The translations under genes and the position numbers were made by a program. A stretch of 63,306 nt of DNA, the filler included, from Octopus bimaculoides (Eukaryota), in assembly GCF_001194135.2 (NCBI RefSeq). It is 4 parts of 4 records of this genome, joined end to end, with 100 filler letters (N's around TTAATTAATTAA, not from the genome) between each part and the next. Parts side by side here need not be neighbours in the genome. Positions count along the whole stretch, not along the records: positions 1 to 17,653 come from NC_068998.1; positions 17,754 to 44,891 come from NC_068982.1; positions 44,992 to 61,177 come from NC_068983.1; 1 more part is not named here. One strand, given 5' to 3'. The notes beneath the pieces are model-generated. The model searched no databases, was not told where the DNA came from, and saw nothing but the letters and a program-made list of their open reading frames with translations. Below, piece after piece: positions 3,632 to 59,596 of the stretch (the stretch's first letter is position 1; every line of letters starts with the position of its first letter).

Positions 3632-3730
3632 CTTCTTACAGCCGTTTCAATTAATGCTCAATAATTTAATTACAATTTTGTACATTAAATTTGCATTCAT
3701 GTGACATGAGCATGATTTCATCAGATAAAA
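3632..3730 (-). ncRNA. Type I hammerhead ribozyme motif (weak helix I)
   Basis: Minus strand: TTTTAT CTGATGA AATC-ATGCTCA...TGAGCAT-TAATT GAAA CGGCTG TA AGAAG. Confidence 0.55.
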
Positions 3731-3831
3731 AAGATGTACCTTGAGATGTGGACCTGTCAATTCATTTCAGCAGACTAAATTTAGTCTGATAAAATGGATA
3801 TGTCCACGTATAACATTTCAAGGTACATCTT

Positions 3832-3929
3832 TTTTATCTGATGAAATTATGCTCATGTCCCATGAATGCAAATTTAACGTACAAATTGTAATTAAATTAT
3901 TGAGTATTAATTGAAACGGCTGTAAGAAG
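3832..3929 (+). ncRNA. Type I hammerhead ribozyme motif (weak helix I)
   Basis: CTGATGA 3838-3844; helix II AATTATGCTCA/TGAGTATTAATT; GAAA 3913-3916; helix III ACGGCTGT; predicted site GTA; helix I has one mismatch. Confidence 0.55.
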
Positions 3930-4203
3930 AGTCAACTTATGTATTGAAAATGAAGGACAACACTTTCAATACCTATTATAAAGTTTTTTAAAGTCTTGTA
4001 AAGTCTAATATATTCTTTTGTAGTCTTATACCATCTTATTTATTTTGCAATAAAATAGTTACTGTGGAGAGACTTTCTGAACACCCTGTATATATTATAT
4101 ATATATCATCACCTATATATATATATATATAAGTCAGTAAATAGTGGGGTTGTGTTAACCGCACGTGGAGAAATAATAGGAAAATGAAAAAAAGCCAGAA
4201 TGC

Positions 4204-4319
4204 TGAACTGGAAGCATAATTTAATAAAGATTTTTTCTAACCGGTTTTCATTGCGATGAAGCAAATCATTCTCCTTCTTCGGTTAGAAAAAATCTTTATT
4301 AAATTATGCTTCCAGTTCA
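4204..4319. repeat. Perfect 40-bp inverted repeat enclosing a truncated HHR-like core
   Basis: Arms 4204-4243 and 4280-4319 (right arm cut by a gap). Minus-strand loop reads (C)CGAAGA-AG...GAAAACCGGT-TAG. Confidence 0.8.
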
Positions 4320-4409
4320 NNNNNNNNNNNNNNNNNNNNNNNNNNNNNNNNNNNNNNNNNNNNNNNNNNNNNNNNNNNNNNNNNNNNNNNNNNNNACACA
4401 CACACATGT

Positions 4410-4568
4410 TGATATTAGAAAACGGTTGGCGTTAGGAAGGGCATCCAGCTGTAGAAACTCTGCCAGATCAGATTGGAGCCTGGTGCAGCCTTCTGGCTTG
4501 CCAGTCCTCAGTCAAATCGTCCAACCCATATTAGCATGGAAAGCGGACGTTAAACGATGATGATGATG
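4410..4568 (+). mobile_element. RTE-related LINE/SINE 3' tail
   Basis: GGAAGGGCATCCAGCTGTAGAAAC...CCAACCCAT..AGCATGGAAAGCGGACGTTAAACGATGATGAT. Related copies at about 6500-6636, 8114-8200, 9900-10030, 13145-13300, 13678-13860 (minus) and 15493-15540. Confidence 0.8.
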
Positions 4569-7014: not shown

Positions 7015-7138
7015 TTTTTAGCTCAGTGTGTTGAAATTTTAATTTCTTTAATAAACCTGTTATTTAAGTGTCACAAGTATACTTGTACATGTGACACTTG
7101 AAGGAAGAAATAAAAATTTTGACACACTGAGCTAAAAA
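7015..7138. repeat. Imperfect fold-back element
   Basis: TTTTTAGCTCAGTGTGTTGAAATTTTAATTTCTT pairs with AAGAAATAAAAATTTTGACACACTGAGCTAAAAA; inner stem AAGTGTCACA/TGTGACACTT. Confidence 0.8.
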
Positions 7139-7200
<62 letters not shown>

Positions 7201-8204
7201 NNNNNNNNNNNNNNNNNNNNNNNNNNNNNNNNNNNNNNNNNNNNNNNNNNNNNNNNNNNNNNNNNNNNNNNNNNNNNNNNNNNNNNNNNNNNNNNNNNNN
7301 NNNNNNNNNNNNNNNNNNNNNNNNNNNNNNNNNNNNNNNNNNNNNNNNNNNNNNNNNNNNNNNNNNNNNNNNNNNNNNNNNNNNNNNNNNNNNNNNNNNN
7401 NNNNNNNNNNNNNNNNNNNNNNNNNNNNNNNNNNNNNNNNNNNNNNNNNNNNNNNNNNNNNNNNNNNNNNNNNNNNNNNNNNNNNNNNNNNNNNNNNNNN
7501 NNNNNNNNNNNNNNNNNNNNNNNNNNNNNNNNNNNNNNNNNNNNNNNNNNNNNNNNNNNNNNNNNNNNNNNNNNNNNNNNNNNNNNNNNNNNNNNNNNNN
7601 NNNNNNNNNNNNNNNNNNNNNNNNNNNNNNNNNNNNNNNNNNNNNNNNNNNNNNNNNNNNNNNNNNNNNNNNNNNNNNNNNNNNNNNNNNNNNNNNNNNN
7701 NNNNNNNNNNNNNNNNNNNNNNNNNNNNNNNNNNNNNNNNNNNNNNNNNNNNNNNNNNNNNNNNNNNNNNNNNNNNNNNNNNNNNNNNNNNNNNNNNNNN
7801 NNNNNNNNNNNNNNNNNNNNNNNNNNNNNNNNNNNNNNNNNNNNNNNNNNNNNNNNNNNNNNNNNNNNNNNNNNNNNNNNNNNNNNNNNNNNNNNNNNNN
7901 NNNNNNNNNNNNNNNNNNNNNNNNNNNNNNNNNNNNNNNNNNNNNNNNNNNNNNNNNNNNNNNNNNNNNNNNNNNNNNNNNNNNNNNNNNNNNNNNNNNN
8001 NNNNNNNNNNNNNNNNNNNNNNNNNNNNNNNNNNNNNNNNNNNNNNNNNNNNNNNNNNNNNNNNNNNNNNNNNNNNNNNNNNNNNNNNNNNNNTATATAT
8101 ATATATATATATGAGCCTGGTGCCATCTGGTTTCACCAGTCCTCTGTCAAATCGTCCAACCCATGCTAGCATGGAAAGTGGACGTTAAACGATGATGATG
8201 TATA

Positions 8205-8410
8205 TAAAATTTATTAATAAGGGTAGAAATTGATATTAATCAATTAAAACCAGTGGTCTAGCATATTAAAAAAATCCGAAGATTAAAATTATATTACATA
8301 CAAAAATAAGAGGAATGACCAGCAAAAGTGGACTCCTATATGCTAGAAATAGATGTCGAATCATCTAATCACGAAGAACTTTTGCTGGTCATTCCTCTTA
8401 TTTTTGTATA
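8205..8410. mobile_element. Repeat related to the terminal segment of the 24 kb HHR element, with a ~32-bp inverted repeat
   Basis: AATTAAAACCAGTGGTCTAGCAT...AAAATTATATTACATAC aligns to 24190-24290; arms about 8298-8329 and 8378-8409. Confidence 0.7.
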
Positions 8411-9204
8411 TATATATATATATAAAAGATAAAGAATCTATCCATCTACATAACTGTCCATCCATCCAACTGTTTATTTACCTACCCACCCATTTACTTA
8501 TCTATCAGTTCACTTTCCCTCCCACCAGCCAGCCATCCACCCACCTACGTCTTGTCATCCATTCCTCTACCAGTCCATCCATTCATCTATCCACCCATCT
8601 ATCTATCTATTCAAATACCCATCTATTTACCAATCCATCAATTTATCTACCCTCCCAGCTATCCACCCACTCACCTATATCCATCTGTCAATCCCACTCG
8701 TTCCACTTTTGCACCTAACCCATCCTTCCGTCTGCCCCATCCATTCCACAGCTTACCCATCAATCTATCCACCCATCCATCCGACCATCTCTTCACCTAT
8801 CATCCATCCATCCATCCATCCATTCATCCACCTACATCCATTTGTCCAACTCTCAACTCACCTGTTCATTCATTCACTTTGATCCACCCACATCCATCCA
8901 TCCATNNNNNNNNNNNNNNNNNNNNNNNNNNNNNNNNNNNNNNNNNNNNNNNNNNNNNNNNNNNNNNNNNNNNNNNNNNNNNNNNNNNNNNNNNNNNNNN
9001 NNNNNNNNNNNNNNNNNNNNNNNNNNNNNNNNNNNNNNNNNNNNNNNNNNNNNNNNNNNNNNNNNNNNNNNNNNNNNNNNNNNNNNNNNNNNNNNNNNNN
9101 NNNNNNNNNNNNNNNNNNNNGTAGAAATAAGTTACGTAGCAATCTTCTCTAACCACAGTTATCACATTCGGTTAAAATGTCTCGCGGTTAAGCTGGTTCC
9201 AATG

Positions 9205-9296
9205 TATTTCCCTGAAGAGAAGATTACATCCTTATCAACATCACCTATTCCTTTGGAAGGTACAATTTGTAATCTTTGAAACATATATTGGAAATA
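9205..9296 (+). ncRNA. Type I hammerhead ribozyme motif
   Basis: Helix I TATTTCC/GGAAATA (7 bp); CTGAAGA 9212-9218; helix II GAAGATTACA/TGTAATCTTT (10 bp); GAAA 9278-9281; helix III ACATATAT (one change from palindrome ACATATGT); H17 = T9289. Confidence 0.7.
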
Positions 9297-11589: not shown

Positions 11590-11912
11590 TGGTATGGCAC
11601 TTCATCAATTATGATGGTGAGGGTTCCGGTTGATCTGATCAACGGAACAGCCTGCTCATGAAATCAATGTGCAAGTGGTTGAGCACTTCACAGACATGTG
11701 TACCCTTAATGTAGTTCTCAGAGAGATTCAGTGTGAAACAGAGTGTGATTAGGTTGGCCCTTTGAAATACAGGAACTACATGTTTCTGCCAGCTGAGTGA
11801 ACTGGAGTAATATGAAATAAAGTGACTTGCTCAAAGACAATGCACTGACAGGAATTGAACTCACAACCTTATGATCATGAGTCAAATAACCTAACCACTT
11901 AGCCACATGCCT
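11590..11912 (-). mobile_element. tRNA-derived SINE (family B), CpG-decayed
   Basis: Contains GATCAACGGAACAGCCTG..GCAAGTGG.TGAGCAC, shared with 36120-36495, 49695-50025 and 55690-55780. Confidence 0.75.
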
Positions 11913-12351
11913 TGTCTTGCAAATTACATGGTGACTCTGCCAATGCTGGTACCACATAGAAAACATCCAGTCCACACTGTGAAGTGATTGACATTTGGAG
12001 GGGCATCCAGCTGTAAAAATAACCTAACCACTTAGCCACATGGTCTTGGCCATTGGGCTTTTGTTTTGGATAAGCATTGGTACCATAGAGGAGAAGAGAG
12101 ATTTGCATACATGGGCTGGTCTTCTGCAAGATAATCTTGCCAAGGCCTCTGCTTTGTGGAAAAGAACTTTCTATGTGTAGAAACCTGTAGCTGTATTTAT
12201 CAGTGACTCATTCATCACTAATTCAGGATAAAGCACTATGCTCATTTGAGAACCATGTTATGCTTATCACAGATTGATCTGTGATAACATGGGCTGGAAA
12301 TCAATCAGACATAGCTCAGACTACATACCAAAAACTGACCTTTCTTTTCAG

Positions 12352-22300: not shown

Positions 22301-22889
22301 GGAAACCAGCCATTACACTTTTTTGATAAATTTGCAAAGCTTACAAGTCAAGGTTAGAATAAGTTGACAATTATGCCAACATCAAACAATACAGAATGAA
22401 GACAAAGACAGGCGGGCGAATGAGAATATCCAGTTTCATATTCTCAGTAGGAATGTCTAATTTTATATGATAAAGAAAGATGAGCCAAGAGGAATAACTC
22501 AGAGTTGCCAGAAGCATATATCAACAATATAGACTAACGCAGGTTATCAAATAACATACAACAGAAATGATTGATTAATTAAAATTACCTCCGCCTCTGA
22601 AGGATGTGTAATAACATCCGAATAACAACTGAGATCAGCTCCATATAGAAGGGGAATAATCTTCAGAACCACCAATTCTCCAAAGTTGATATGTCATTAA
22701 AAAAAGGACAGATTTATTGTCTGGAGATAAAAGGAGAGTCGTGGACACATGTTACTACCTTAATAGGAAATATCAGCCCAACAATTATCCTACCTTATAT
22801 CCAGTAACTAAAGAACTTAGACACGAAAAAAATAAAATACATTTATGGCCCAGGTAATTTGCATAAAGGAAACAAAACAAAATGAGCCA

Positions 22890-22930
22890 CATGCTGATGA
22901 CACCTTTTTGAGGTAGAAACACGTGTATAA
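22890..22930 (+). ncRNA. Degenerate minimal type I hammerhead motif
   Basis: CTGATGA 22894-22900; ACCT/AGGT helix II; GAAA; perfect palindrome ACACGTGT; A17. Helix I weak and 10.1-11.1 is a C-A mismatch. Confidence 0.45.
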
Positions 22931-23753
22931 ACGCCAGACACTCCTTTTTCTTAATGGTACATCAGCTTTGGGGGTAATTCTTTATTCTTGATATTATGTC
23001 TCCTTCTCACATGGACCTGGTTTTAATTGCCATTTGGTAGTTATGACATATTCTCTAGGGCGGAGATAATTTTAACAAATCAAGCTTAATTTTACTTACA
23101 TAGTTAATGTTATTCCGAATTTATGGATGTCACAACATCACAACTTGCTCTTTCTAAAACATATATTACACATCAGGTCGACAAAGATTTATTTCATGAG
23201 CATATGATGTAAGTACTACAGGCCATATAGATATCCCGTTTCATAAATTTTTCCTTTACAACCTTCAAGTTGTTTTTTTAATAGCATTTGAAAATGTTGC
23301 TATAGCTTTCAACGTCTGCATTCATTAAATTCTTTCAAGAAATAAAAAAGATACATTTCTAAGAAAATTTGTTGTTTCTGTGAATTATGCACTTTCGTAT
23401 GTCATAAATTTTGTTGATTTAAGACAGTTTATATTGGTACCTTTGTCTGTTTATATGTTGTTACTTTTAAGCTGAATGTTATTATATATTTTATGTATTG
23501 ATCATGATTAGACGGATTTTTATGATGTAAGCTGTACTCAGCCAAATTATGTCAGTATTGACTTCGAATCATTTTTCTTTACTTACTTACGTTAAGCAAT
23601 ATTGACATCAGCTTCCCATTCTAAACAAATCATCTTTGATGATATTTGTTAAGTCAAAGTAACACTAATCCGTACAATTACAAACATCTTCGTACATACA
23701 TAAACACAAACACACATTCACAAATCACATACGCACGTGTGTGTGCATGTATG

Positions 23754-23949: not shown

Positions 23950-24442
23950 TTCTTCACAAGACAAAGTTTATCAAAACACGATTTTCAGAAAGTAAATAAA
24001 TATAATGAGCGTTCTGAAAACAATGTGTGTCTGTGTAAAGGATATAGATGTTAAAGGAGGAATCCTGAATATAGCCTACAAGCATGATGCGTGTATTCAT
24101 GAACATGTTCGCATGCCTGTGCCTATACACACACAAACACACACACATACACACACATATATACATATAAATATATTTAGATAATAATAAGGGTGATAAA
24201 TTGGATATTAATGTAATTAACACCAATTTAAAACCAGTGGCCTAGCATAAAGAAAATTCTGAAAATTCTGAAAAATTATATTACATACATGTGAGAAAGG
24301 GTTAAGCACTAAATGGACATCCTTTACGCTAGAAATCGACTATCAACTGTCAAACCACAAAAGAAAAGAATGTTCTTCAGAGAAATTCAACACACACTAG
24401 ATCATGAACAAGACAAATGAAAATATACAAAAATAGGAATTA

Positions 24443-24521
24443 GTCGTAGACCAGGTTTCGCGCATTAATGGATTAATGTAATTGTTACTTACATAACCCA
24501 TCCGATGCTCATCAGTATGAC
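24443..24521 (-). ncRNA. Type I hammerhead ribozyme
   Basis: Minus strand: GTCATA CTGATGA GCAT..ATGG..ATGTAA/TTACAT..CCAT..ATGCGC GAAA CCTGG TC TACGAC; one A-C mismatch in helix I. Confidence 0.75.
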
Positions 24522-25062
24522 CGTTCGGTACAATATAATTTGCAAAACAATACACGGATTGTCCACATAAAATTAGACATGTGTACAGTTCTACCGATTA
24601 CATTGGAGTTATTTTTGTATATTTTCATTTGTCTTGTTCATGCTCTGCTGTGTGCTGAATTTCCCTGGAGAACATTATTTTCTTTTGTGGTTTGACCGTT
24701 GATGGTTGATTTCTAGCGTAAAGGATGTCCACTTAGTGGTCATCCCTTCTCACATGTATGTAATATAATTTTTTCTGAATTTTCAGAAATTTTTTTATGC
24801 TAGGCCACTGGTTTTAAATTGGTGTTAATTAAACTAATATCCAATTTATCACCTTTATTATTATTTAAATTTTAATAATTATGTTCTCTAGCCGGCAACG
24901 GTTACTGCAGTGAATTATCTTCTGCGGAATTGTTTCCGGTATTTAACGCGCCAGCGCTGAGACTTTTGAAAATAACTCCAATGTAATCGGTAGAGCTGTA
25001 CACATGTCTAATTTTATGTGGACAATTCGTGTATTGTTCTGCAAATTATATTGTATCGAACG

Positions 25063-25141
25063 GTCGTACTGATGAACATCGGATGGGTTATGTAAGTAAA
25101 AATTACATTAATCCATTAATGCGCGAAACCTGGTCTACGAC
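25063..25141 (+). ncRNA. Type I hammerhead ribozyme
   Basis: Helix I GTCGTA/TACGAC perfect; CTGATGA 25069-75; GAAA 25125-28; helix III ACCTGGT; GTC site, cleavage predicted after C25135; position 10.1 is A instead of G. Confidence 0.75.
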
Positions 25142-28050
25142 TAATTCTTTCTTTTGTATATTTTCATTTGTCTTGTTCATGTTCTGGCGTGCGCTGAATT
25201 TCTCTGGAGAACATTCTTTTCTTTTGTGGTTTGACAGTTGATGAACGTTTGCATGTCGCGCGCGCGTGAGTGTAAGTGAAAGAGTCTAAATTCTCTCTTA
25301 ATGAGGTGCTTAAAACAATGTTTTATGTGTTCGACTACGTAAAATATGAATTTTAAAACCTCATCTCAAAAGAAAATCTAAAATCATGCTGCACAGCTCA
25401 TATTCTTTGAAGTTATATTCATTATTTCAGGAAACATTGCATTGTTATGAAAAAACTTTCATATGCGTAAACTGAGATTTGATGGCTATCAAAATGATAG
25501 CCGTCAGATCTAAAGAACTTCCCGGAATGTTGGCATTTTGATGACCACTGTTCTTCATTGGGTTGAGTCATACCATCGTTGACCATCTATATATTTGACC
25601 TATCGTGACACAATGAGAATTAGGCTAGCTACAATGTTGGGTGGGAGTCCAATTAACAATGGAGTAAATAGCCAGTTCATTTTCTGTATATATGTGTATG
25701 TGTGTGTAAGCGGGAGTGGATGTGTGCTTGCTGTGCCTGGGCCCATGTCTACGTGTCTCTATACATGTGGCATTTGTTAATATGCAAGTATATGTAAATA
25801 GAAGTTTCGTGCTCACATGCAGCATTATTTCAATGATGAAACCTGTCGATTTCATTGCCACATATATCACTAGAATAAATGAAATAGCTACATGCGTGAA
25901 TCATACCGAAATGTTATATAGAAATATAATCAATATTTAGTCTTAACTTAAAACTCAGCTGTTTTTGTTAGGCCCTGGTCAATTATGATTGATTACTTTT
26001 GTAATGAGAAGTACTTCAGTATTTGTGTGTGTGTTAGTGCTTTAGTAATTTTCTATTAAGACTGTAAGAGGTAATTTGAAGGAGATTTAATAATCATTTC
26101 TAGCAGAACAAGTGAACCAGATAGTCTCTTATAGTAGGAATATTATTCAACCTTTCAAGTATTGATACAAAGGAGTAGAACAAGGAAGTTTAGGAAGATA
26201 TACAGTAGATTAAACTCATAATGTTTCAAGTTCATGAACTCTATATAGAAATATACAAAAAGAAAATGTTTGAATACACATGAAGTCAGTTTAATTACAC
26301 AACTAATGTATTATTTACAAAGCAGAAGTGATTAGATCAATGGAGCAAAAAATAATTTCAGTCCAGCTGATTCTGGTATTTTTTGGCGATAATTGTTATT
26401 CATGAAGGTGCTCCTTCTATGGCTTGTATTTAAAAAAAAATATCATCTCTGATGGCTACTACTATCATCATTGATCACTTTCCTTTTCTTTTTCATCTTT
26501 TAATTTAATATACATGTCCTATTCTTTTATCGTGGGTCATCTATCGGTATTTATATTTGTGTACAATTTACACAGCCGTGAAATTCCTTGCTCTTAACAC
26601 CATATGTCAGTTACAATAGTAAAATTATTCTTTACCACATGAAACTTCATTTACCACAGCAGATGGCCACGGTATTTCTAAATTTTTTTCACAATCAGGC
26701 TCCACAGTCATATTCGCAAAATGAAAAGCTAGCCTTTGACACACCACTGACACTGAATAGTATTGATATATTGGCTTTAATTTCAAAATCTCAATGACTA
26801 TACTAGCAGACAAGAACAACTACTATCATGTTCACTCGTGCAACTTAACTTGTGAGTGATCGTCAAAGCTACATAACACTGATGAAATTTTCTCTGAAGG
26901 ATCAGCAAACATCATTCACCCTTAAATATTTGCTGATTAACGACACCCAAGTTCAACTGACATTGGAGTAATAGTGATATAATTGAGACGTGCGAGTGCC
27001 ATCCTTACAAGAAACCACAATATCTTAATATCACAAACAAAGGGGAGGAAATACGGCTGATTCGCAAACAGTCACTATCACTAAGCGTATGTATTCGTGA
27101 TGACCTTCTTGCTTTCACCTTTCTTTGAATGGACTCTGCTTCTCTGATCGAACATTCTGTAAATTCCCTCCACCCAATCCTATATAATAAACGTCATTTC
27201 TTCTAGTCATCTTTATTGTTAATAACTACTGTTCACCACCTCACAATTTATCCCTCCACCGCTACCATTTCCTATACTAAACATTCCGCAAATTTTTTTT
27301 TCTTGAAACCCTGTACGTCACATGTCAACTGATGGATGTTAAAGCTAAACTTTCGTATTATTTTCATCAACTTTGAAAGGACTACAATGGCCATTAGCAC
27401 CATCTTCACAGAGATTTTTGTATGCTTGAAAATTTAAAATACATATAAAAAAAAAAAAGACTTTACACACTTGAATAAATAAAAATTTGTAATATTGTGT
27501 GATATATATCCTTGATTTTAGTTGGCTTCATCGAGAACATAAAAAAGTATTTCTGTAAACATGAATTTTGAAAAGTCAGGCAGAATATTGAAGAAGAAAT
27601 ATTCTTCGATTTTCTCAAAAACAAATACAATTCAATAATAAATCTTAACAATAAATATATATATATGTAACAGAGATTTAAAACTTCAGAAAGAGAATTG
27701 AGTGGAAACAAGAAACTGAACAACAGAATATGATTATCAAGTAAGCGNNNNNNNNNNNNNNNNNNNNNNNNNNNNNNNNNNNNNNNNNNNNNNNNNNNNN
27801 NNNNNNNNNNNNNNNNNNNNNNNNNNNNNNNNNNNNNNNNNNNNNNNNNNNNNNNNNNNNNNNNNNNNNNNNNNNNNNNNNNNNNNNNNNNNNNNNNNNN
27901 NNNNNNNNNNNNNNNNNNNNNNNNNNNNNNNNNNNNNNNNNNNNNNNNNNNNNNNNNNNNNNNNNNNNNNNNNNNNNNNNNNNNNNNNNNNNNNNNNNNN
28001 NNNNNNNNNNNNNNNNNNNNNNNNNNNNNNNNNNNNNNNNNNNNNNNNNN

Positions 28051-30689: not shown

Positions 30690-31375
30690 CGTTTTCTCTT
30701 ACTGGATCCGTACAATTACACCCGATAAAAACATTCATGACATATGGTTTCAAGAACTAAAGGATACACTCCTGGACAGGAATTATCCACCAACGTTAAT
30801 CAATAATGGAATACAACGGGACACAAAATTCCATTTCCAGGAACTAACACAAACAAAACTAAGAAGTATATTGAAGTCGAAGTTTTGCTATGCATTTCTA
30901 TTTACAACCTTAAAACATAACAACAAAGAAAAAAGAAACTCTGACTGAACCAAATCCTTCAAATACATACCATCATAGAAATAAAAACAAACAGTCCAAA
31001 TGAATGCAAAAAATACTAAGGCCAAAATTTATACATTAACAACAGTACCAACAATAAAAAAGATCACGGTAAAGAAAAAATTCACTTGTGTACCTGAAAT
31101 CCGAATATATGCAATTATATGCTCAGGATTCGGAGAGAACTACGTAGGACAAACAATAATATCCTTAAGACGATGCATTGCTCTATACAGATAACAAAAA
31201 ACGAATACAGACAAATAGGAATTTGTGAACACAGAGATATATGTGTAGGGAAGAAACAACTAAATTTACATTCTTCTCCTAATACTAATTTGAAGATGGC
31301 ATATCACAACAGAAACACATCAACCAAGAAGCATGTATCCTAACCAAATACCAACCACTTCTAAATCACTGAAAC
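30690..31375 (+). mobile_element. Penelope-like element, RT thumb and GIY-YIG endonuclease remnant
   Basis: QELKDTLLDRNYPPTLINNGIQR, then FTC...IYAIICSGFGENYVGQT..SLRR (GIY-YIG pattern), with frameshifts. Confidence 0.75.
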
Positions 31376-33523: not shown

Positions 33524-33559
33524 CTTTAACGTTTCGAGCCTACGCTCTTCCCCAGAAAG
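33524..33559 (-). ncRNA. Minimal PLE-type hammerhead motif, core mutated
   Basis: Minus strand: CTTT CTGGGGA A GAGC GTAG GCTC GAAA CGT T AAAG; palindrome ACGT; catalytic A6 changed to G. Confidence 0.5.
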
Positions 33560-38199: not shown

Positions 38200-39130
38200 G
38201 TTCTGCCTGGTTGGCTTCCCCGTAGGGAACGGTCATCAGCCGTTCCACTTGGTTTATTTTCTTAAAGAGTCATTCTCCTGTATTTGCTGAAGTTCGGTTT
38301 TGATCGGTGATAAAAGGTCATTGGTCTAGTGTTATGTGACATCAGCAACTGGTGTTTCTATGGTGATATTGTAAATCTATTTGAATTTGGGGTTTTGAAA
38401 CCGACGTGGAAGACTGCTACTAAAGTTTCTTAAATTATGTCTGTTGTATCTGGTAGTTTTTGTGGCGAAATTGGGTCTTTTCCCTTTTTCTCTTTAGTGT
38501 TTTTTCTTCTTTCTAAAGTATATAAGTATATTCAGCTGTGGCTTATATTTTTTAACGAGTATGCTTTCCTTTTTTAAACGGAATTGGGTTGAAGTGTTTC
38601 CGGTGCATTGATAGAGATGGAAGATTTGGTATTTCGGGTTTATGTTTGCAGGGAAGTTTGCTTAGGGGAATTTTCCTAGTTGTGGGGTCCCGGATTTGTT
38701 GCCTGTGTACCGTTAGTCTGTCTCTCAAGGTTAATCTAGTTTGACCTACGTAGTCTCCACATTTGAGAACATAGATTAAGTTCTTCGAAGCAGAGGTGAA
38801 GTGATTTTTTATGGTATCAATGTTTCAGCCATACTGAGTTAAGAGGAAGAAAAACAATGCCATTTGATGCCATTCTTGTTGATATTCAATGGGAAGGAAA
38901 TTGAAAAGGAAAATGAGCGAATTCACACATGTGCCGACACTAGCTTTCGGAATTTTGTTTATATAGAAAGTGTAGTTTAAGCGAAATGGAGTATAAAGGG
39001 ATTTTTGTTTCAGTAAGGTAACAGGGTGGATTTGTTCGGCGTGTTTTAGTTGATGATCGCAATGTGCGCTGACATGTTTGAATTTGAGTCCAGGGATATA
39101 GAAAAATGAAAGATTTATCAAGTGGATTTA
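38200..39130 (-). mobile_element. Penelope-like element 3' part (RT thumb, GIY-YIG, pLTR)
   Basis: Minus strand HFTSASKNLIYVLKCGDYVGQTRLTLRDRLTVHRQ; a CTGATGA-containing degenerate HHR-like end at about 38205-38250. Confidence 0.75.
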
Positions 39131-44991: not shown

Positions 44992-45398
44992 GTCGTTATA
45001 TTGACGACTGTATCGGTGCGACCTCACTCTCCCGCGAACAACTTGACTCCTTCCTCTCTTTTGTCAAATCTTTCCATCCTGCCCCCCCCACTTCTCCTGC
45101 ACTATTTCCGACACTTCCGTCGCCTTTCTCGACATTTCAGTCAGCATTAATCACTTCACTCTCACTACCTCCATCTACTACAAACACACAGACTCCCACC
45201 CATACCTCAACTTATCCTCCTCCCACCCTAAACACACCAAGCTCTGCATCCCCTATTCCCAATTCCTCCATCTGCGCAGGCTCTGCAGTGACAACCATGA
45301 CTTTGAGACTCAGTCTCAACTCATGGTTCACCACTTCATCCTACGTAGATATCCTCTCACCACTATCCACACCGCCATTGCCAGAGCACACACAAAAG
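44992..45398 (+). mobile_element. Penelope-like reverse transcriptase fragment
   Basis: RYIDDCIGATSLSREQLDSFLSFVKSFHP..ISDTSVAFLDISV..TSIYYKHTDSH.YL..SSSHPKHTKLCIPYSQFLHLRRLCSD. Confidence 0.85.
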
Positions 45399-45857
45399 TG
45401 TGAAACAATATTATAGTCTTATCACATTAGAATTAAAAGTGAAAGAATGAAAGTGAAATAATATTATATCACAGAAGGAAGTCAATTTTTAGACAGAAAT
45501 TACAAACTCTATTTTAGAGTATAAAGCTGTAGAAGAAAGTAGCTTGAGTGAAAAAACTTGAGCCACTTTAGGATATCTTATTCTAACGCATGAACTCTCA
45601 TGGCGTGCTTGAATTCCCATTGGTTAGTAATGAATGCTTATCGGCTGTATCACAACGGTTTTCGATAGAGGGAGAAATGTAAATAGTGTTCATAAATAGA
45701 CTGAGTGCAAAAAATTAAAAATAAGTAAAGTAATGTTGTAGGGAGAACGTACAAATAGCGTGAAGACAAAGATACTTACGCACGGCAAAACTGAAATGCA
45801 CTGAAGTTAATTTTCAGAGAGACAGGGAGAGAGAAAGAGAAAGAAAGAAAGAAAGAA

Positions 45858-45901: not shown

Positions 45902-46300
45902 AGAGAGAGTGAGCGAAAGAAACAGACATAGACTTAAAGAGAGGAAGTATTGCAGAAGGTGAAAATGAGAAAAAGAAAGAGAGAAAAAGGGAAAAAATCG
46001 CTTGAAAACTGTAGACGTTAAAGGGAGAAAATCGGTTGAAAATGCAGTTTTTAGAGAAAAAGCCATGTGAAACACCTTTTTCCCTAGTCGGTTTCTCGCA
46101 TTACGTGGGAGCTCTGGGCAAAGGTCTTATAGTGCATGATCATCCTTGGCACATAAGTAATGTGTGTCTAAAGTTTGGTAAAAATCGGTTGAAAATTGTA
46201 GAAATGCATACGTACTACACACACAGACACAGTCACACAGAAACATACACGTACACAAACACACACGCACACCCATCCTTTGTTTTATATATATAGATTA

Positions 46301-46690
46301 AGTTCATATTTCTGAGCATAATCTCTTCAGGGGGAAAAATAAACACTTAGATGTTTTGCATGCTTGTTTGTAACAAACATACAAAACATTTAAGGGTATA
46401 TTTTTCCCCTCTGAAGAGATTATGCTCAGAAATATGAACTCAATATTTAATTAATTTCACTGTGTATAATTGAAACAGCTGTAAGGGATAATGATCGATT
46501 TGTTGCTGATAATAAATGTTTATTAACTTGAAAATCACCATTTTCTTCTTCCTTTACATGAATATAAATTACAGCTTATATACACACCTATTATTTTTAG
46601 GATATCAATTCCCCCTAAAATATTAGGTAATTAACCAGTATTTCCTTGGATGACACCATCTCTTCATGAGAGTAACATAACCTCTAACTG
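46301..46690 (+). mobile_element. HHR-bearing fold-back element, same family as 3434-3929 and 17443-17590
   Basis: 140-bp hairpin 46301-46440; tail 46490-46690 is the reverse-complement homologue of 3434-3630. Confidence 0.75.
46407..46487 (+). ncRNA. Type I hammerhead ribozyme, apparently intact
   Basis: Helix I CCCT/AGGG; CTGAAGA 46411-17; helix II GATTATGC/GTATAATT; GAAA 46472-75; perfect palindrome ACAGCTGT; GTA site, cleavage predicted after A46483. Confidence 0.75.
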
Positions 46691-49461: not shown

Positions 49462-49694
49462 TAAAATGTCAAATGGTTTGGTGCGTGACTTTCAGCTCAC
49501 CCACTATATTTTTCCTAAATTCCAGTTTATGGTTGCATGTGAGGATTATCTTTGAGTGTTAGTTTATTATTTTCATCCTTACATAATATTATTTCAAGTG
49601 TTTCCTGTAGGTAAATGTTACATACTTTGGAGTCTGTGTTATAAGGTTTTGCATTTCGTAGTACCGACCAAGTGGTGCTGTGATATATGTATGA

Positions 49695-50025
49695 CACTGG
49701 CACCCCGTCGGTTACGATGACAAGATTTCCAGTCGATCATCCGACCAACGGAACAACCTACTCGTGAAATCAGCGTGCAAGTGGCTGAGCACTCCGCAGA
49801 CACTTGTACCCTTAAAGTAGTTCTCAGGGAGATTCAGCATGACACAGAGTGTGACAAGACTGGCCCTTTGAAATACAGGTACTTTTCATTTTTGTCAACT
49901 AAATGAACTGGAGCAACGTGAAATAAAATGTCTTGCTCGAGAACACAACACGTTGCTAGGAATCGAACTCATGACCTTGCGATCGTGAGGCGAATAGCCT
50001 AACCACTAAGGCACATGCCTTCACA
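49695..50025 (-). mobile_element. tRNA-derived SINE (family B variant)
   Basis: Shares the family B tail and a tRNA-like head (GGAATCGAACTC...CTAACCACTAAG). Confidence 0.75.
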
Positions 50026-50294
50026 ATAGTTGGGTCGAGAACAGCATATCCGTGTATCAACAATATATATGGACATTTATTTGCATACCAATGTATATAC
50101 AGACTTGTGCTATCACTTACATATACATACACATAGACAGATCAATATACTCATCGGAATAAGTACACATGTATATGTAAAATCACACACAGGTATACTC
50201 CAGTATGCAGTCCGCGGTCCACTGAAGTTCTCGATCCAATATAGGGAATATTTCGAGTGTAGTGTAGTATAAATAGTAACACGAATCGGCTGAG

Positions 50295-50381
50295 ATTCAC
50301 TACAGCTGTTTCAGACCGCTTTTTATTGGTGAACAAATTAATTACATTAGGAAAAAAATAACCCGTTTTCTTCAGGTGAAT
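50295..50381 (-). ncRNA. Type I hammerhead motif with eroded helix II
   Basis: Minus strand: ATTCAC CTGAAGA ...GGTCT GAAA CAGCTG TA GTGAAT; helix I 6 bp, palindrome ACAGCTGT. Confidence 0.6.
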
Positions 50382-50406
50382 TCAAATTTAAATCTAAAAT
50401 TTAACA

Positions 50407-50544
50407 TTATTTACATTATTTACATTTGATGGATATTTGTCCTCATCTTGTTTGTTGTTAACAACAAACAAGCTGAGGACAAATATCCGTCAAATGTAAA
50501 TAATGTAAATAAGTCCTCATCTTTTAAATATAGAACTGTATGAA
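50407..50544. repeat. 106-bp palindrome (50407-50512) inside an insertion with a 15-bp target-site duplication
   Basis: Centre TT|AA at 50459/50460; CTAAAATTTAACATT at 50394-50408 and 50545-50559. Confidence 0.85.
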
Positions 50545-50563
50545 CTAAAATTTAACATTTCAG

Positions 50564-50667
50564 ATTTTGCATATAGAGAATGTAGAATGTATTTTGACTC
50601 CCTTCATCTCCATGACGACCAAGATCTTGATCGTTACGGAGATAAACCCTCCGACTGGATTCAATAA
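50564..50667 (+). CDS. Candidate terminal exon (D)FAYRECRMYFDSLHLHDDQDLDRYGDKPSDWIQ*
   Basis: TTTCAG acceptor and protein-like frame to TAA; no partner exon identified. Confidence 0.25.
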
Positions 50668-51168
50668 AAAATTAATAACGAAACAATCCCACAAAAACAA
50701 ACAAACCAAAACAAAAACAATAAACAAAATTACGTTTATTATCCTCAGTTTAGAATTAAAGATTCTTAATTTTAATTCTGTCTGGTAGACAGAACGCACA
50801 AGACATTTGATTACTGGAAATCAAACTGATTGAAATTTAGCAATAACATATCAGTCTAATCTCAATTCGAATGTGAATATCTGATCGCTATTGTTTTTCA
50901 CCATCGGAGAACATCTCTTCTCTTTAGACGATGTCTATTCATAACATAAGCGGTTTACCGGTGCAAGAAATGAACAAACAAATTATTTGTTGATGTGTGC
51001 TGATATCTGCCTGCCAAATAGATAATTTATGAGGTCCACACAGAACAGTGAGAATCTAAACAAGATCTGTGATAGTGTTAAATTCATCGGTCCAACGGGG
51101 AACATTTGACTGAGGAGTCACACAATAAGGTCGAAACACTACGGTATCTCAAAGTCCCCTTATACGGT

Positions 51169-52415
51169 TGTAGTGAAACTAACACCTCGATCGCCATTAC
51201 ATACAAAACTACCTATCGCCATTAGATACAAAACTGCTATCGCCATTCTTCTCATTTAAATATAAACAAACGCGGGCGTAGCGGAAAACATCAACCTTGT
51301 CATCACGTGACTGATTATTATTCGAAGCGGCAACTTCTTCGAACCGTTCCCGCCAGAACGCAAACTGACCAATCACAGCCCCTAATAAGGTCACGTGACA
51401 GAGTATTTTTCTGAAGCATTCGGGAGCCGATAATTCTCTATAAATAGATCAACTCATACCCAGCAAATTGGTCTCGGTTCNNNNNNNNNNNNNNNNNNNN
51501 NNNNNNNNNNNNNNNNNNNNNNNNNNNNNNNNNNNNNNNNNNNNNNNNNNNNNNNNNNNNNNNNNNNNNNNNNNNNNNNNNNNNNNNNNNNNNNNNNNNN
51601 NNNNNNNNNNNNNNNNNNNNNNNNNNNNNNNNNNNNNNNNNNNNNNNNNNNNNNNNNNNNNNNNNNNNNNNNNNNNNNNNNNNNNNNNNNNNNNNNNNNN
51701 NNNNNNNNNNNNNNNNNNNNNNNNNNNNNNNNNNNNNNNNNNNNNNNNNNNNNNNNNNNNNNNNNNNNNNNNNNNNNNNNNNNNNNNNNNNNNNNNNNNN
51801 NNNNNNNNNNNNNNNNNNNNNNNNNNNNNNNNNNNNNNNNNNNNNNNNNNNNNNNNNNNNNNNNNNNNNNNNNNNNNNNNNNNNNNNNNNNNNNNNNNNN
51901 NNNNNNNNNNNNNNNNNNNNNNNNNNNNNNNNNNNNNNNNNNNNNNNNNNNNNNNNNNNNNNNNNNNNNNNNNNNNNNNNNNNNNNNNNNNNNNNNNNNN
52001 NNNNNNNNNNNNNNNNNNNNNNNNNNNNNNNNNNNNNNNNNNNNNNNNNNNNNNNNNNNNNNNNNNNNNNNNNNNNNNNNNNNNNNNNNNNNNNNNNNNT
52101 GTATCACTCACATACATACATTTCTTTGTACGACGGCCTGTCTTTGATTATGTTCTTATATGTCGCATTCACACTCACACACAGACATACATCTTTAACG
52201 CCATAATAAATATTTCTGTTATTCATCTCATACGGTTGCCTTCTATCGTCTCTTCATTACTGGTATTTACGAATTCACTAATGTTATCGAAGTATAACAT
52301 TGTTTGTATATCATCATTGATATATTATTTTGTGTTCGACCGTGTGACACGTTTAAATAAAAGGAGTCCTCTGTTTTTTCCATTCGTCACCATTTCTCCT
52401 TTTTGAGTTCGAGCA
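51169..52415 (+). mobile_element. LTR-like element (solo LTR), gapped, 3' end uncertain
   Basis: Starts TGTAGTGAAAC as at 55910; CCAAT, CACGTG and TATA module; 3' segment homologous to 56880-56950. Confidence 0.65.
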
Positions 52416-53587: not shown

Positions 53588-54028
53588 TGTAGCGTAGACA
53601 CGGGTGAAATTCCTCTCTCCCATTTATTATATATACGTGCATTCGAACGTAACAGGGAGCAGCTAACCTTTGGCCGCTATTTGGATCCCGTCGTGTCTAC
53701 TACTCTGATTGGTTGGTATTGGCGCAATTTGTCTCTTACTCGATTGTACCAACTGCCGTGTATAACCAGTTGGAGGTCCTAAATAAATTCACGTGGGACA
53801 ACCTGTTTACAACCCTGCTTTTAGCCTACAGTTCTTTATAAAAACTCAAAACGGTAGAGGAGTAGGGGCCGAAACCGGACGTGGTTCCTCCTGATGATGT
53901 CTTTAGCTAACTGGATCCTATAAAGGAGCTGTTGTGGTAGCAGACCACGAAACATGGTTGAAATTCCATTCCTTCCTTTCCGTCTCAAACGAGCTTGCCA
54001 GCCTTTCTCGACTGCGAGAGAAATTACA
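53588..54028 (+). mobile_element. Short LTR-like element of the 57981 subfamily
   Basis: First about 250 bp align to 57981-58236; TGT start and a TTACA at 54024-28; no TSD found, so the 3' end is tentative. Confidence 0.6.
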
Positions 54029-55909: not shown

Positions 55910-56971
55910 TGTAGTGAAACCTCTCTCTCGGGCATTCAATCATAAATGATAACGAAGCTGCTAACAACTAGCCTTCGGTTGCCTTGGTCCTTTCTGTCCA
56001 TCATCCTGATTGGTTCTTATTTGCGCGGCAATTGTCCCCATGTTCTGCTTGCTAAGGGGGCGTTTACGTCCAATCGTGGCTTCAGCTAAAATCACGTGAG
56101 AAGGAGTTTTACTGGGTTTCCGGTGAGCCCTTTTTCGCCTATAAATAAGCCCGATCCAACGACGGCAATCGTCTTCGATTTCAGATCTCTCACAAGTCTG
56201 GTCGTTGACCACACACATACAGAACACAGCTACAACCAGTTCCAGCGCCGACGTCTTCACCACCAATGTACTGTCTACCGTTGTCGTCGCCAGCAACACC
56301 AACATCAACAAGAGCGGTTTATCTCGATGCTGTTGAGTGGATTGTTTTCACTCACGAATAATAGTCAGAACTATCCAGCTAGAATATACTATACCAGGTC
56401 ACACAGGTCGCAGCATTCGACACTCAACACACATAGTGTGATACTACAGCTCTGCTCCTTGGCCACAACTTCCTGCGTATGAACATTCTATCTCCTTGTG
56501 TAACTCTTGTATGAACTGGTTTTCTCTATTCTCAGTGTTTAAGACTTTTTACAGTCTATGTTACAGACACTCTTTCTATTATTCTGTGTTTCCTCTCATT
56601 CACACGCACACTGGTACTCTCACATATTGTACACACACTATTGTTTATACGACTGTCCGTCACTTCACATTGTTGTATACATTCTCTTGTACACCAAGGC
56701 CTGACTTATCTACTGTGTTAATTTTATATGTCGCATGCACGCGCACACAGACAAACATTTTCACTTTGTTAATAAATTTATTCTCATTATATATCTATCG
56801 GTTAAGTTTGTCCTAAGTTCTTTTACTGGCACAATGGCTCGTATCTCTTACGACGAGCCTTCTATCTTATATATATATCTTTATTTTGTGTTCGACCGTG
56901 CGACGTGATAAAAAGGAGCCTTTACCGTCTACGTCGCCATCTCCTTTGGTTCGCACGGTCGAAGTATTACA
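55910..56971 (+). mobile_element. Solo LTR (1062 bp), probably Gypsy-type
   Basis: TGTAG...TTACA ends; 4-bp TSD TATG (55906-09, 56972-75); CCAAT 56070, CACGTG 56093, TATA 56140, AATAAA about 56771. Confidence 0.85.
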
Positions 56972-56991
56972 TATGTATATATATATATATT

Positions 56992-59271
56992 TTGGGTCAT
57001 CCAATAAATAATGCGGTTTTTTCAATTGCATAAATTAAAAGTTGGAGTGGGATGGGATAAACTACCTGCATCAACTTGCTATAAAAGCAGTCATTAACTT
57101 TATCTTGTCCGTATTCTTAGTTCAAGTTTTGAAGAGTGCAGTTTGATTTTAACAGTTATTTTATCAAAGCTATAATGGAAGTGACAAAGGAGCATATTCA
57201 GCATATTTTGCTTTATGAGTTCAATAAAGGCAACAACGCATCGAAAAGTGCAAGGAATATTAATGCAATACATGGGGATCGGACAATAGGCGTAGGCCAA
57301 TGTCAACAGTGGTTCCAGAAATTCCGAGCCAGAAACTATAGCATTGTAGATAATCCTCGTCCTGGAAGATCTGTAGAGCTCGACAAGGACGTCTTGCAAA
57401 CCCTGGTGGAACAAAATCCCATCGTAACTGTTGAGGAAACAGCAGAGAAGTTTGGATTTGGTCACTCAACCATTCATCAACACTTACGTACCATCGGAAA
57501 GGTCCGCAAATTGCATCAATGGGTTCGTCACAATCTTTCCGAGTCTAATCGCGCGCAAAGAGTGAATGCGAGCTCTTCTTTGCTGCCATGTCTCATGAGT
57601 GAACCTTTTTGAATGGAATAGTGATTGGTGACGAGGAATGGGTTTTCTGTAAAAATATCACGTGCCAAAGTCAGTGGGTAGGGAAAGGAGAACCACCAGT
57701 ACCACTGGCTAAAGAAGGTCTTCACCCATGGAAGGTGTTGTTATCTCTTTGGTGGGATATGAACTTTTAAACCCAAACCAAACGATAGCAAAGATCTACT
57801 ACGAACAGCGCGAGCAGCTTAAGTCAGCGCTAGAAGAAAAACGACCATCTTTGGTTTCAAGACTAAAGGTGTTCTATCAGGATAATGTTCGGCCACATAC
57901 AGCAAGGATGGCATTCCAAAGGCTGGAGCAGTTTGAATGGGAAACGCTGCCCCACTCATCATATTCTCCGGACATAGTCCTGTAGCGTACACTCGAGTAA
58001 AAATCCTCTCTCCTCTTTATTATATATACGTGCATTCAAACGTAGCAAGTAACAGCTAGCATTTGGTTACTATTTGAAACCCCTTTGTGTCCGCTACTCT
58101 GATCGATTGGTATTGGTGCAATTTGTCTCTTACTCTGTCGCGCCAATTTGCCGTGTATAACCAATCAGACCCCCTAAAAATCACGTGAGACAGCTTGTTC
58201 TCAACCAAGTTTTAAGCCTAAAGCTGCTTATATAAACCCAGCTTCTTGTCTCGTGGTCTTTCGGTTCCAGACCTTTTTATGTCTAGCCACTGACCACTGA
58301 ACACAGCCAGTTCCAGCGACGACACCACAGCAGCTACGTTGAGACTAACCAACTTCGTCCAATAGCAATACGGCAATCTCTTACTTCGTCGCCACCATCA
58401 TCTTCTCAACGTCGTCAACATCATCTCTCTATGTACACACCTCAGCAAGCAACAAGCAACTCATCCAGGTTCCAACACTTCTCTCTTCGTGAATTACTTC
58501 ACCATGGATCAACAGTGAATATACAACCTGCAAGAACTTCTGTATCAAGTGACCCAGGCAGCAGCATCACAGCCATGACGTCACGTATGGCATGTACCTG
58601 CAGCCGGCTCAGCATCATGGCCGCAGTTTCTTGATACAGTATTTCAACTATCGTGTACAATTGACTACGAAATGGTATTCTCATTCTTGTGTCTATGAAC
58701 TTCCCACTTCGATGGCTATAGACTCTTTCACTGTCTCATTCATTGCTATTCTTATATGCTCTTAACACACGCATACATACATTCTTTTTCATGACGGTCT
58801 GTCTATTATTCTGTATACATGACGCACAAACAGACATACATGTTATTACATCAATAAATCTTCTCTTAAACATTGTACGCAGTTGTGTCTCCTTTTTCTC
58901 TCTGGCACTTACATGTTCTATTAATTTTATACTTATTGTATCGATCATGTGATGTACTAAAGCGCCATTCTCGTTACCTCGCATCGCACGGCCCTTACAG
59001 CTCCATCTGATTATAATTTATTCCGTAGCTTTCAAAATCCTTTGGACGGAAAAAATATGTATTCTGTAGGCAAGGTCAGAACAGTAATAGAAGAGTATTT
59101 TTTGTCACGGACAAGTGAATTTTGGAAGAGGGGCCTTGCAAGCCTACTAGATAGGAAGAAGAGCATTGTAGAAAATGAAAGAGAGTATATTTTGGATTAA
59201 AAAAGAATTTTATTTATCTTAATTTTGAAAAATAAAAGTATAAAAACCGCATTATTTCTGGGATGACCCAA
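56992..59271 (+). mobile_element. Mariner (DD34D) interrupted by a solo LTR, inactive
   Basis: TIRs TTGGGTCATCC..AATAATGCGGTTTTT at both ends; ATG 57175; motifs IGDEEW, QDNVRPH and YSPDI|APSDYNLF split by the insert; stop about 59200. Confidence 0.92.
57981..58999 (+). mobile_element. Solo LTR (1019 bp) inserted in the mariner YSPDIAPSD motif
   Basis: TGTAG...TTACA ends; flanks GTCC and GCTCC form an imperfect TSD; removing it restores the transposase frame. Confidence 0.85.
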
Positions 59272-59488
59272 TGTNNNNNNNNNNNNNNNNNNNNNNNNNN
59301 NNNNNNNNNNNNNNNNNNNNNNNNNNNNNNNNNNNNNNNNNNNNNNNNNNNNNNNNNNNNNNNNNAAATTAAAATTAAATTGAGCCTTATAGATATTTAC
59401 TTTACTTTATTTTAATTATTAATTTTTCTATATGTGATAGTGGATTTTCATCGATGAGTTCTTGAAAATTGGTTATTTTCCCTAAAAC

Positions 59489-59596
59489 TATATGTGACAA
59501 TTATTCGGTAGCCATGAGTTTCGGATGTCGGGGCGGAAACCCGCGCCGCTATCTCTTCAGTTGTCGGGCATGGCTACCGAATAATTGTCACATATA
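59489..59596. repeat. Perfect 28-bp inverted repeat enclosing a truncated HHR core
   Basis: Arms 59489-59516 and 59569-59596; minus-strand loop CTGAAGA GATAGCGG...ACATCC GAAA CT. Confidence 0.75.

What the first reader, a model, noticed from the sequence alone, without database searches (positions are those of the whole stretch)
3632..59596. About ten hammerhead motifs from several families in 63 kb, nearly all with palindromic helix III
Seen: CTGANGA...GAAA cores at 3632, 3832, 9205, 22890, 24443, 25063, 33524, 46407 and 50295, and truncated ones at 4244 and 59517. Helix III is ACGGCTGT, ACATATAT, ACACGTGT, ACCTGGT, ACGT, ACAGCTGT or ACCGGT: different sequences, same (near-)palindromic design. 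Known: palindromic helix III marks PLE-type HHRs that are most active as dimers. Inference: a diverse, abundant ribozyme-bearing repeat system unlikely to be captured by standard repeat annotation, many members having long AU-rich helix II.
Basis: partly seen in the sequence, partly recalled or inferred. Interest (0 to 1): 0.8.

Follow-up and report, generated by a model that had tools for sequence, protein, structure and literature searches.

The report
Octopus long-armed Penelope-type hammerhead ribozymes
This octopus DNA holds real hammerhead-ribozyme motifs in several repeat families, likely the worn tail ends of Penelope-like jumping genes; the design is known, but an unusually long second arm hides them from the standard RNA-family search, and most copies here are predicted to be inactive.

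Summary
Largely real, and a variant of a known kind. The window is Octopus bimaculoides. Eight of the nine main sites have an intact CUGANGA/GAAAC core with a self-complementary helix III. Seven also have stem I, against 0.04 expected (0 of 1,400 shuffles). 33524 has one core change, 22890 lacks stem I, 59517 is cut, and 4244 is unsupported. Two pairs are inverted duplicates, so the nine sites are seven insertions from six families. Six of nine loci sit in local inverted repeats (7.8% background), the Penelope-like element (PLE) signature. Family A is multi-copy (823 contigs laid), non-tandem and weakly transcribed, with no cleavage pile-up. Palindromic, dimer-type PLE hammerheads are published, including one from this species (Craig 2021, File S2), and this scan found them before in shark-like and rotifer DNA. 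What differs is a 49-69 nt helix II in four families (26 nt or less in that table's metazoan rows), and Rfam misses every copy. No family is tied to an ORF, and cleavage is untested.

The parts
3434..3790 (-). Family A element copy A1; hammerhead 3630-3731 (core 3724-3718, 69-nt helix II, helix III ACGGCTGT, predicted cut after A3637), about 200 nt of 3' tail to an N gap
   Evidence: 73% to A3 over 255 nt
3780..3931 (+). A2, inverted head-to-head duplicate of A1; hammerhead 3831-3931 (core 3838-3844, 68-nt helix II); similarity ends just past stem I
   Evidence: 89% inverted match 3632-3929
9205..9296 (+). Family D hammerhead: 7-bp stem I, 59-nt helix II (10-bp base), helix III ACATATAT with a 15.2/16.2 mismatch; (TA)n about 60 nt downstream
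22887..22934 (+). Family E short-helix hammerhead, perfect ACACGTGT, stem I broken (2 of 5); lies between 72% inverted arms 22571-22698 and 22953-23083
24175..24615 (-). Family B copy B1; hammerhead 24442-24522 (49-nt helix II, fold z -4.8, ACCTGGT, GUC), about 270 nt of 3' tail ending at a TA/CA-rich tract
24610..24870 (+). Family B 3'-tail fragment without the hammerhead, inverted to B1 and in partial tandem with B2
   Evidence: inverted repeats I4, I5; direct match 24613-24704 to 25152-25243
24969..25242 (+). Family B copy B2; hammerhead 25062-25142 (7-bp stem I, helix II z -3.8, A instead of G at 10.1)
   Evidence: 94% inverted to B1
33524..33559 (-). Family F minimal hammerhead (4-bp stem I, unpaired A, 4-bp helix II, ACGT); one core change (CTGGGGA)
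46297..46359 (-). A4, partial inverted copy of A3 (stem I 5' strand, core at 46330, start of helix II)
   Evidence: 89% inverted match 46297-46444
46372..46687 (+). Family A copy A3; hammerhead 46406-46488 (54-nt helix II with 8-bp base, ACAGCTGT, predicted cut after A46483); 3' end at 46687 followed by (TC)n and (TA)n
50295..50381 (-). Family C hammerhead: 6-bp stem I, ACAGCTGT, GUA, 56-nt helix II that no longer folds well (z +0.6); a 96% fold-back lies just upstream at 50407-50512
51098..51159 (+).
   Evidence: sequence read directly
59486..59599 (-). H: core (59560-59554) and GC-rich 31-nt helix II, cut at GAAACT (59517), enclosed by inverted arms
44994..45400 (+). Frameshifted PLE reverse transcriptase remnant (YIDD motif to thumb); not linked to any hammerhead here
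   Evidence: tblastn E 2e-43 to P0005; homologues carry RVT_1 and GIY-YIG
38674..38818 (-). PLE GIY-YIG endonuclease remnant
   Evidence: PLE profile iE 1e-5
31054..31168 (+). Weaker PLE GIY-YIG remnant
   Evidence: PLE profile iE 6e-4; translation

Best explanation
These are type I hammerhead motifs in at least six repeat families, likely the 3' pseudo-LTR ends of Penelope-like retroelements left as short, often inverted insertions, and in the parent element two tandem copies would pair their palindromic helix III and cut the RNA as a dimer.
Shown: the cores, stems and palindromes; the inverted and partial-tandem layout; a motif about 200-270 nt from the 3' end in families A and B; the multi-copy status of family A.
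Inferred: PLE origin, with the Hydra clade as best guess from helix III arms and TA-rich ends; dimer cleavage of the tandem precursor; a long helix II that works as a tolerated extension on an 8-10 bp base.
Predicted: most copies here are dead, through point changes (D, E, F, G, A1/A2), truncation (H) or pairing with their inverted partner (A1/A2, A3, B1/B2).
For: Motif excess over shuffles. Of 71 and 118 core-plus-palindrome matches in viral and metagenome contigs, only 0 and 2 had both stems.
6 of 9 loci lie within 60 nt of a local inverted region, against 7.8% of the unmasked window (binomial P about 2e-5); Craig 2021 describes an inverted 5'-truncated copy and partial tandems as typical of PLE insertions. 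In DNA run X1, 7 of the 15 joints shown are strand switches (one is this locus's own); depth rises towards the 3' end and loose ends diverge at 46687.
A1 against A3: core and GAAA-helix III about 17 of 19 identical, 3' tail 134 of 194. Stem I pairs 3 and 4 change C-G to U-A on both sides, and helix III A to G gives a G.U pair (read by hand). None of 38 shown variable positions lies in the 27 core, helix III or stem I positions (P 0.027). C46406>T, in 60% of X1 depth, adds a fifth stem I pair.
A dimer fold is predicted 13-16 kcal/mol better than two active monomers for A1, A2, A3, B1, B2, C and E.
Helix III arms acag/ctgt occur in 4, and acac/gtgt in 2, of 26 Hydra-clade rows of Craig's File S2 (counted by eye). 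Three PLE coding remnants lie in the window.
Against: No family is joined to an RT or endonuclease frame; the three PLE remnants are unlinked, so PLE origin rests on architecture.
The G10.1-C11.1 pair that Cervera 2014 calls highly conserved is present in only B1 of the 7 long-helix copies.
The long helix II folds better than shuffles only in B (z -4.8, -3.8); D and A3 are borderline (z about -1.8), and A1, A2 and C are not.
The active dimer fold is less stable than two lowest-energy monomers in all copies but B2 (the model lacks Mg and tertiary terms).
Covariation rests on two independent family A lineages. The variant test used 40 of 102 rows, under an 80% likeness filter.
Microsatellite adjacency is not above background (37% of random positions within 300 nt). 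No molecule-end pile-up appears in 2 RNA runs.
Confidence: 0.75

Rival explanations
1. Some families are non-autonomous hammerhead elements (solo non-LTR retrozyme monomers or SINE-like pLTR derivatives) of about 300 nt that borrow PLE enzymes.
For: Copies are short and non-coding; A and B span 300-450 nt; no linked ORF. A 2026 preprint finds retrozymes derive from PLE pLTRs and often occur as dispersed monomers. G has a canonical-like long stem I and a stable helix III loop.
Against: No head-to-tail array with period above 63 nt anywhere in the window at score 80 or more (41 rows). No 'goes back' joint among 15 of 21 shown. RNA is scarce and on both strands: 119 of 12.9 million and 55 of 12.0 million reads, 92-95% running on into other sequence. 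Loose ends show the family continues upstream of 46372.
Confidence: 0.17
2. The motifs belong to Naiad elements, explaining the 'HHR_half_core' cases and overturning the claim that Naiads lack hammerheads.
For: Craig 2021 marks Naiad_Ovul and Naiad_Esco as half-core, with the second half 35-50 nt away, and gives a (TA)n preference.
Against: The 3' ends of Naiad_Obim, Naiad_Ovul and Naiad_Omin show no CUGANGA...GAAAC-palindrome motif and no likeness to families A-D (read by eye). Five 11-nt helix III motifs gave 0 hits in the supplement (line breaks can hide matches).
Confidence: 0.03
3. The copies are host-co-opted, active ribozymes that cut the LRRC63 pre-mRNA or other transcripts.
For: E, B2, A3 and G are on the sense strand downstream of the LRRC63 coding exon (15681-16631); no later exon was found in the window. 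B2 and C keep a stable stem I when folded alone.
Against: Copies carry scattered disabling changes. With the inverted partner, stem I probability falls to 0 for A3 and B2. No end pile-up. No same-strand partner for a dimer.
Confidence: 0.04
4. Chance matches in AT-rich, fold-back-rich DNA.
For: Bare CTGANGA is common (39 against 25.6 expected). The 4244 site is such an artefact. The main descriptor was written after seeing the finding.
Against: 7 against 0.04 with stem I, maximum 1 in 1,400 shuffles. Family A depth peaks on helix III and the cut site.
Confidence: 0.01

Closest known systems
Hydra-clade PLE hammerheads (Craig et al. 2021, PMC8557442, File S2), including Hydra-1_oBim of O. bimaculoides
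   Same: Type I, near the 3' end, 4-7 bp stem I, helix III arms such as acag/ctgt or acac/gtgt, GUA/GUU/GUC triplets, often no G-C pair at the helix II base, TA-rich targets
   Different: Helix II region is 26 nt or less in the 26 Hydra rows, against 49-69 nt here; helix III has a 1-3 nt loop there, mostly none here; the window's families are not Hydra-1_oBim by sequence; no ORF is linked here
Metazoan PLE min-HHRs and small-palindromic-helix-III variants (Cervera and De la Pena 2014, PMC4209133)
   Same: Many divergent families per genome, mostly single motifs, dual motifs 100-700 bp apart on opposite strands, palindromic 15.2-16.2 and loop 3, dimer design. F fits the min-HHR directly.
   Different: Helix II is 7-8 bp there, with G10.1-C11.1 and an unpaired base after A9; families A-D mostly lack both and extend helix II to 49-69 nt
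PLE-X1 hammerheads of Selaginella (File S2, flagged as deviating from canonical)
   Same: Type I PLE hammerheads with a helix II region of about 48-54 nt
   Different: Plant, endonuclease-less, 28S rDNA-targeted; other helix III; a few families rather than dispersed high-copy remnants
Non-LTR retrozymes (Cervera and De la Pena 2020, PMC7229834; Li et al. 2026, 10.64898/2026.07.22.740005)
   Same: Non-coding, type I hammerhead, few hundred bases, AT-rich, tied to PLE pLTRs, present in molluscs
   Different: Those are head-to-tail arrays expressed as abundant circles; here copies are inverted or solitary and family A RNA is scarce

Membership tests
Type I hammerhead ribozyme | CUGANGA and GAAA core in type I order | tested here: met
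   8 of 9 main sites; F has one change
Type I hammerhead ribozyme | NUH triplet with 15.1/16.1 and 15.2/16.2 pairs | tested here: met
   GUA x5, GUC x2, GUU x1; D (AUU) breaks 15.2/16.2
Type I hammerhead ribozyme | Stem I closing across the cut site | tested here: met
   At least 4 of 5 pairs in 7 of the 8 intact-core sites, plus F; E fails; 11% of shuffled candidates pass
Type I hammerhead ribozyme | Helix II closing the core | tested here: inconclusive
   Clear base in A2, A3, D; strong distal hairpin in B; poor in C and G
Type I hammerhead ribozyme | Self-cleavage at the predicted site | not testable with these tools
   No end pile-up in 174 RNA reads laid from 2 runs: too few, and the wrong library type
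Metazoan PLE hammerhead (Cervera 2014) | Short palindromic helix III unstable as a monomer | tested here: met
   Fully self-complementary in A1, A2, A3, C, E, F; one central mismatch in B; at most 2 bp as monomer
Metazoan PLE hammerhead (Cervera 2014) | G10.1-C11.1 pair and unpaired base after A9 (min-HHR consensus) | tested here: not met
   Both only in F; G-C in 1 of 7 long-helix copies. So A-D are not min-HHRs in the strict sense.
Penelope-like element | Inverted 5'-truncated copy or partial tandem | tested here: met
   6 of 9 loci against 7.8% background; family B partial tandem; strand-switch joints in other copies
Penelope-like element | Linked RT plus GIY-YIG ORF upstream of the pLTR | tested here: inconclusive
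   Three remnants in the window, none joined to a hammerhead; no genome was available to extend the families
Hydra clade | Clade-specific RT/endonuclease motifs (DKT, CxCX5C, no CCHH) | not testable with these tools
   No linked protein
Hydra clade | Insertion into (TA)n | tested here: inconclusive
   D, A3 and B1 end at or near TA/TC/CA tracts and A1 at an N gap, but background is high; loose ends at 46687 are AT-rich
Naiad clade | Identity with octopus Naiad 3' ends | tested here: not met
   (three consensus ends read by eye)
Non-LTR retrozyme | Head-to-tail repeats of 150-450 bp, each with a hammerhead | tested here: not met
   (longest period 63); no go-back joint in 15 of 21 shown (family A only)
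Non-LTR retrozyme | Abundant monomeric or circular RNA | tested here: inconclusive

The most novel reading that the evidence does not exclude
Octopus PLE lineages carry an undescribed hammerhead variant: a loop-free 7-8 nt palindromic helix III plus a 50-70 nt helix II, found in at least four unrelated families. The distal arm swaps sequence but stays paired (one expressed family A copy shows a different 12-bp perfect inverted repeat there). The arm would then be a selected module, for example for RT binding or dimer docking, and cephalopod genomes would hold tens of thousands of ribozyme copies that Rfam and short-spacer descriptors cannot see.
Probability: 0.4. Interest if true: 0.55.

Novelty: new variant of a known kind. 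Interest (0 to 1): 0.35.

Why it matters
Hammerheads in PLEs are known, so the existence of these motifs is not surprising. The variant matters in three modest ways. First, counts in cephalopods rest on Rfam (235 hammerheads in giant squid) or on short spacers (7-17 nt in Craig's core search), and both would miss the long-armed families. Second, the motif gives a handle to classify short octopus repeats as PLE ends. Third, a perfect 8-nt palindrome is a clean natural test of obligate dimer cleavage, an open point for PLE ribozymes, which cut poorly in vitro. The inverted pairs are also predicted long double-stranded RNA in a likely intron.

Tried and rejected
- Rfam: no hammerhead among 82 matches in the window or 25 matches in 50200-51300 at E up to 10; all are hairpin or microsatellite noise below gathering score.
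- No whole genome is held for this window, and no orthologous octopus loci were obtained, so genome-wide counts and per-family covariation remain open.
- Collection scans: the family A pattern gave 0 in metagenomes and 0 in viral contigs. The PLE protein alignment found no viral locus.
- No RNA holder was listed among indexed runs; this is not evidence either way.
- The Naiad idea was rejected.
- CTGATGA at 38239(-) lies at the edge of a Tc1/mariner copy and its GAAAC is inside the transposase frame: rejected.
- 53891(+): core, 51-nt hairpin and GAAACATGGT, but no stem I; left open. My parse of its helix III was one base short.
- Several cut-site coordinates used for the microsatellite distances were a few bases off; the distances quoted are recomputed geometry. 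The region columns in that call were off by 1-2, so its identities are approximate.
- Lunse et al. 2016 and Arkhipova et al. 2017 are not held; they are known here only through a review and citations, and may describe long-helix variants.
- Earlier-findings searches by place and by sequence returned nothing.
Full report
Source. The ORF at 15678-16682 is 100% identical to an Octopus bimaculoides LRRC63 protein. The match covers residues 1-317 at 15681-16631, and no later exon is found in the window, so the DNA downstream is likely intron (inference). The window has 4,604 N and is about 36% GC outside them. No whole genome was held.

Observation. There are 39 CTGANGA words against 25.6 +/- 4.8 in shuffles, so the bare core means little. 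A descriptor of intact core, 10-80 nt spacer, GAAAC, near-palindromic helix III and NUH finds 9 loci against 0.37. Seven of them have stem I of at least 4 of 5, against 0.04 (maximum 1 in 1,400 shuffles; reversed and complemented window 0). That descriptor was written after the fact. A stricter generic one found 3 against 0.096 (0 of 500) and missed B, C and D. As outside controls, core-plus-palindrome matches in viral and metagenome contigs had both stems in 0 of 71 and 2 of 118 cases. 33524 has one core change, 22890 has no stem I, 9205 has a 15.2/16.2 mismatch, 59517 is cut in helix III, and 4244 is the arms of an inverted repeat. A1/A2 and B1/B2 are inverted duplicates (89% and 94%), and A1/A2 and A3 are one family (73% over 255 nt). 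So the nine sites are seven insertions from six families.

Anatomy. All are type I. Helix III can form at most 2 bp as a monomer but pairs over 6-8 bp between two copies; the dimer fold is predicted 13-16 kcal/mol better than two active monomers for A, B, C and E. Against this, the active dimer beats two lowest-energy monomers only for B2. Helix II spans 49-69 nt in A, B, C and D. It is significantly structured only in B, borderline in D and A3, and not in A1, A2 or C. Its AU content (63-78%) is near background.

Context. Six of nine loci lie in or beside local inverted repeats that cover 7.8% of the unmasked window; for A1/A2, A3 and B the repeat includes the motif itself. Family B forms an inverted copy plus a partial tandem. 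In A and B the cut site lies about 200 and 270 nt from the 3' end. No head-to-tail array holds a motif. PLE coding remnants occur at 44994-45400, 38674-38818 and 31054-31168, none joined to a hammerhead.

Family A in public runs (4 of the 24 listed runs, at least 80% likeness). 823 contigs of DNA run X1 and 461 of X12 (another organism label) were laid. Summed depth in X1 is about 14,000 at the core, 40,000 at helix III and 66,000 near the 3' end, against about 50 for single contigs. That suggests hundreds to about a thousand copies at this likeness, though the tool warns that depth is no copy number. Of 21 joints, 15 are shown: 7 strand switches (one from this locus), 8 skips, none going back. 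Loose ends diverge at 46687 and continue upstream of 46372. None of the 38 variable positions shown falls in the 27 core, helix III and stem I positions (P 0.027; 62 rows hidden, so weak). C46406>T adds a stem I pair in 60% of X1 depth. In RNA, 119 of 12.9 million and 55 of 12.0 million reads were laid, on both strands, nearly all from other copies, with no end pile-up. Two loose ends in X22, flanking the distal helix II, are reverse complements over 12 nt in a sequence unlike A3. If they come from one copy (not shown), the distal arm changed sequence and stayed paired. Between A1/A2 and A3, two stem I pairs change on both sides and one is broken.

Mechanism. In an intact PLE tandem, the two pLTR hammerheads would pair their palindromes and cut out the element RNA (established model). 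Reverse transcription from the 3' end, with early truncation and inversion, would leave the short pieces seen here (inference). In place, inverted partners drive predicted stem I pairing to 0 and bury the core in A1, A2, A3, B1 and B2, and the other copies carry disabling changes. So most are predicted fossils. B2 and C keep stem I when folded alone.

Comparison. Cervera and De la Pena 2014 (PMC4209133; parts 1-2 of 4 read, supplement not read) report many families per genome, single motifs, opposite-strand pairs 100-700 bp apart and small palindromic helix III. Craig et al. 2021 (PMC8557442; passages, section 11, supplement parts 1, 2, 24 and 52 of 59, plus searches) list Hydra-clade hammerheads, including Hydra-1_oBim, with similar helix III arms but a helix II region of 26 nt or less in 26 rows. 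Only two Selaginella PLE-X1 rows reach about 50 nt (counted by eye). Octopus Naiad ends do not match. Retrozyme papers: PMC7229834 (passages) and the 2026 preprint (parts 1-3 of 5, supplements not seen; no mention of octopus or molluscs). PMC6765202, PMC6962438, PMC13282606 and PMC13725137 were seen as passages only; 'long helix II' in the last means 6 bp. Eight paper searches found no description of long-helix hammerheads in octopus. Lunse 2016 and Arkhipova 2017 could not be read, and most subscription papers are outside the library. Earlier notes of this scan reached the same 'real but known' verdict on shark-like and rotifer DNA; they are unchecked and not counted as support.

Verdict. Observation partly confirmed; interpretation partly supported. 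The motifs work like PLE dimer-type hammerheads. Families A-D fail the strict min-HHR consensus, and membership in a PLE clade is not shown. New variant of a known kind; interest 0.35.

Noticed in passing
window 51098-51159 (+): Worn type I hammerhead with a long interrupted stem I and a helix III closed by C-UACG-G: a monomer-type design unlike the other families, possibly a retrozyme remnant
   Followed up: partly
window 53866-53985 (+): GAAACCGGAC followed by CTGATGA, a 51-nt hairpin and GAAACATGGT; a possible old long-helix hammerhead without stem I, just after a repeat shared with 57974-58240 (77%)
   Followed up: partly
window 9195-9295 (+): Sequence just upstream of D's stem I can pair with its GAAAC-helix III segment and wins in folding with longer context: a competing helix, or chance
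   Followed up: partly
window 8212-8418: Family B 3'-tail fragment (71-77%) with its own fold-back, no hammerhead
   Followed up: partly
PMC8557442 File S5, 3' ends of Naiad_Obim and Naiad_Ovul: Both carry a 6-bp stem, then GAAAC, then CTGATGA about 22 nt later, in permuted order; it could be a non-canonical hammerhead-like fold
   Followed up: no
window 37705-38154, 48203-49463, 56992-59271: Tc1/mariner-like transposase remnants (identified from the translations by recall), two with terminal inverted repeats
   Followed up: no
window 3035-3268 and 8572-8756; 3434-3488: Near-identical direct copies (98-99%) next to N gaps, likely assembly duplication
   Followed up: no
window 4424-4568, 8113-8200, 13687-13831, 15491-15540; 11595-11913, 36118-36301, 49698-50021: Two dispersed SINE-like repeat families without hammerheads
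   Followed up: no
window 4204-4319, 7015-7138, 50407-50512: Short near-perfect fold-backs; Rfam miRNA hits there are hairpin noise
   Followed up: partly
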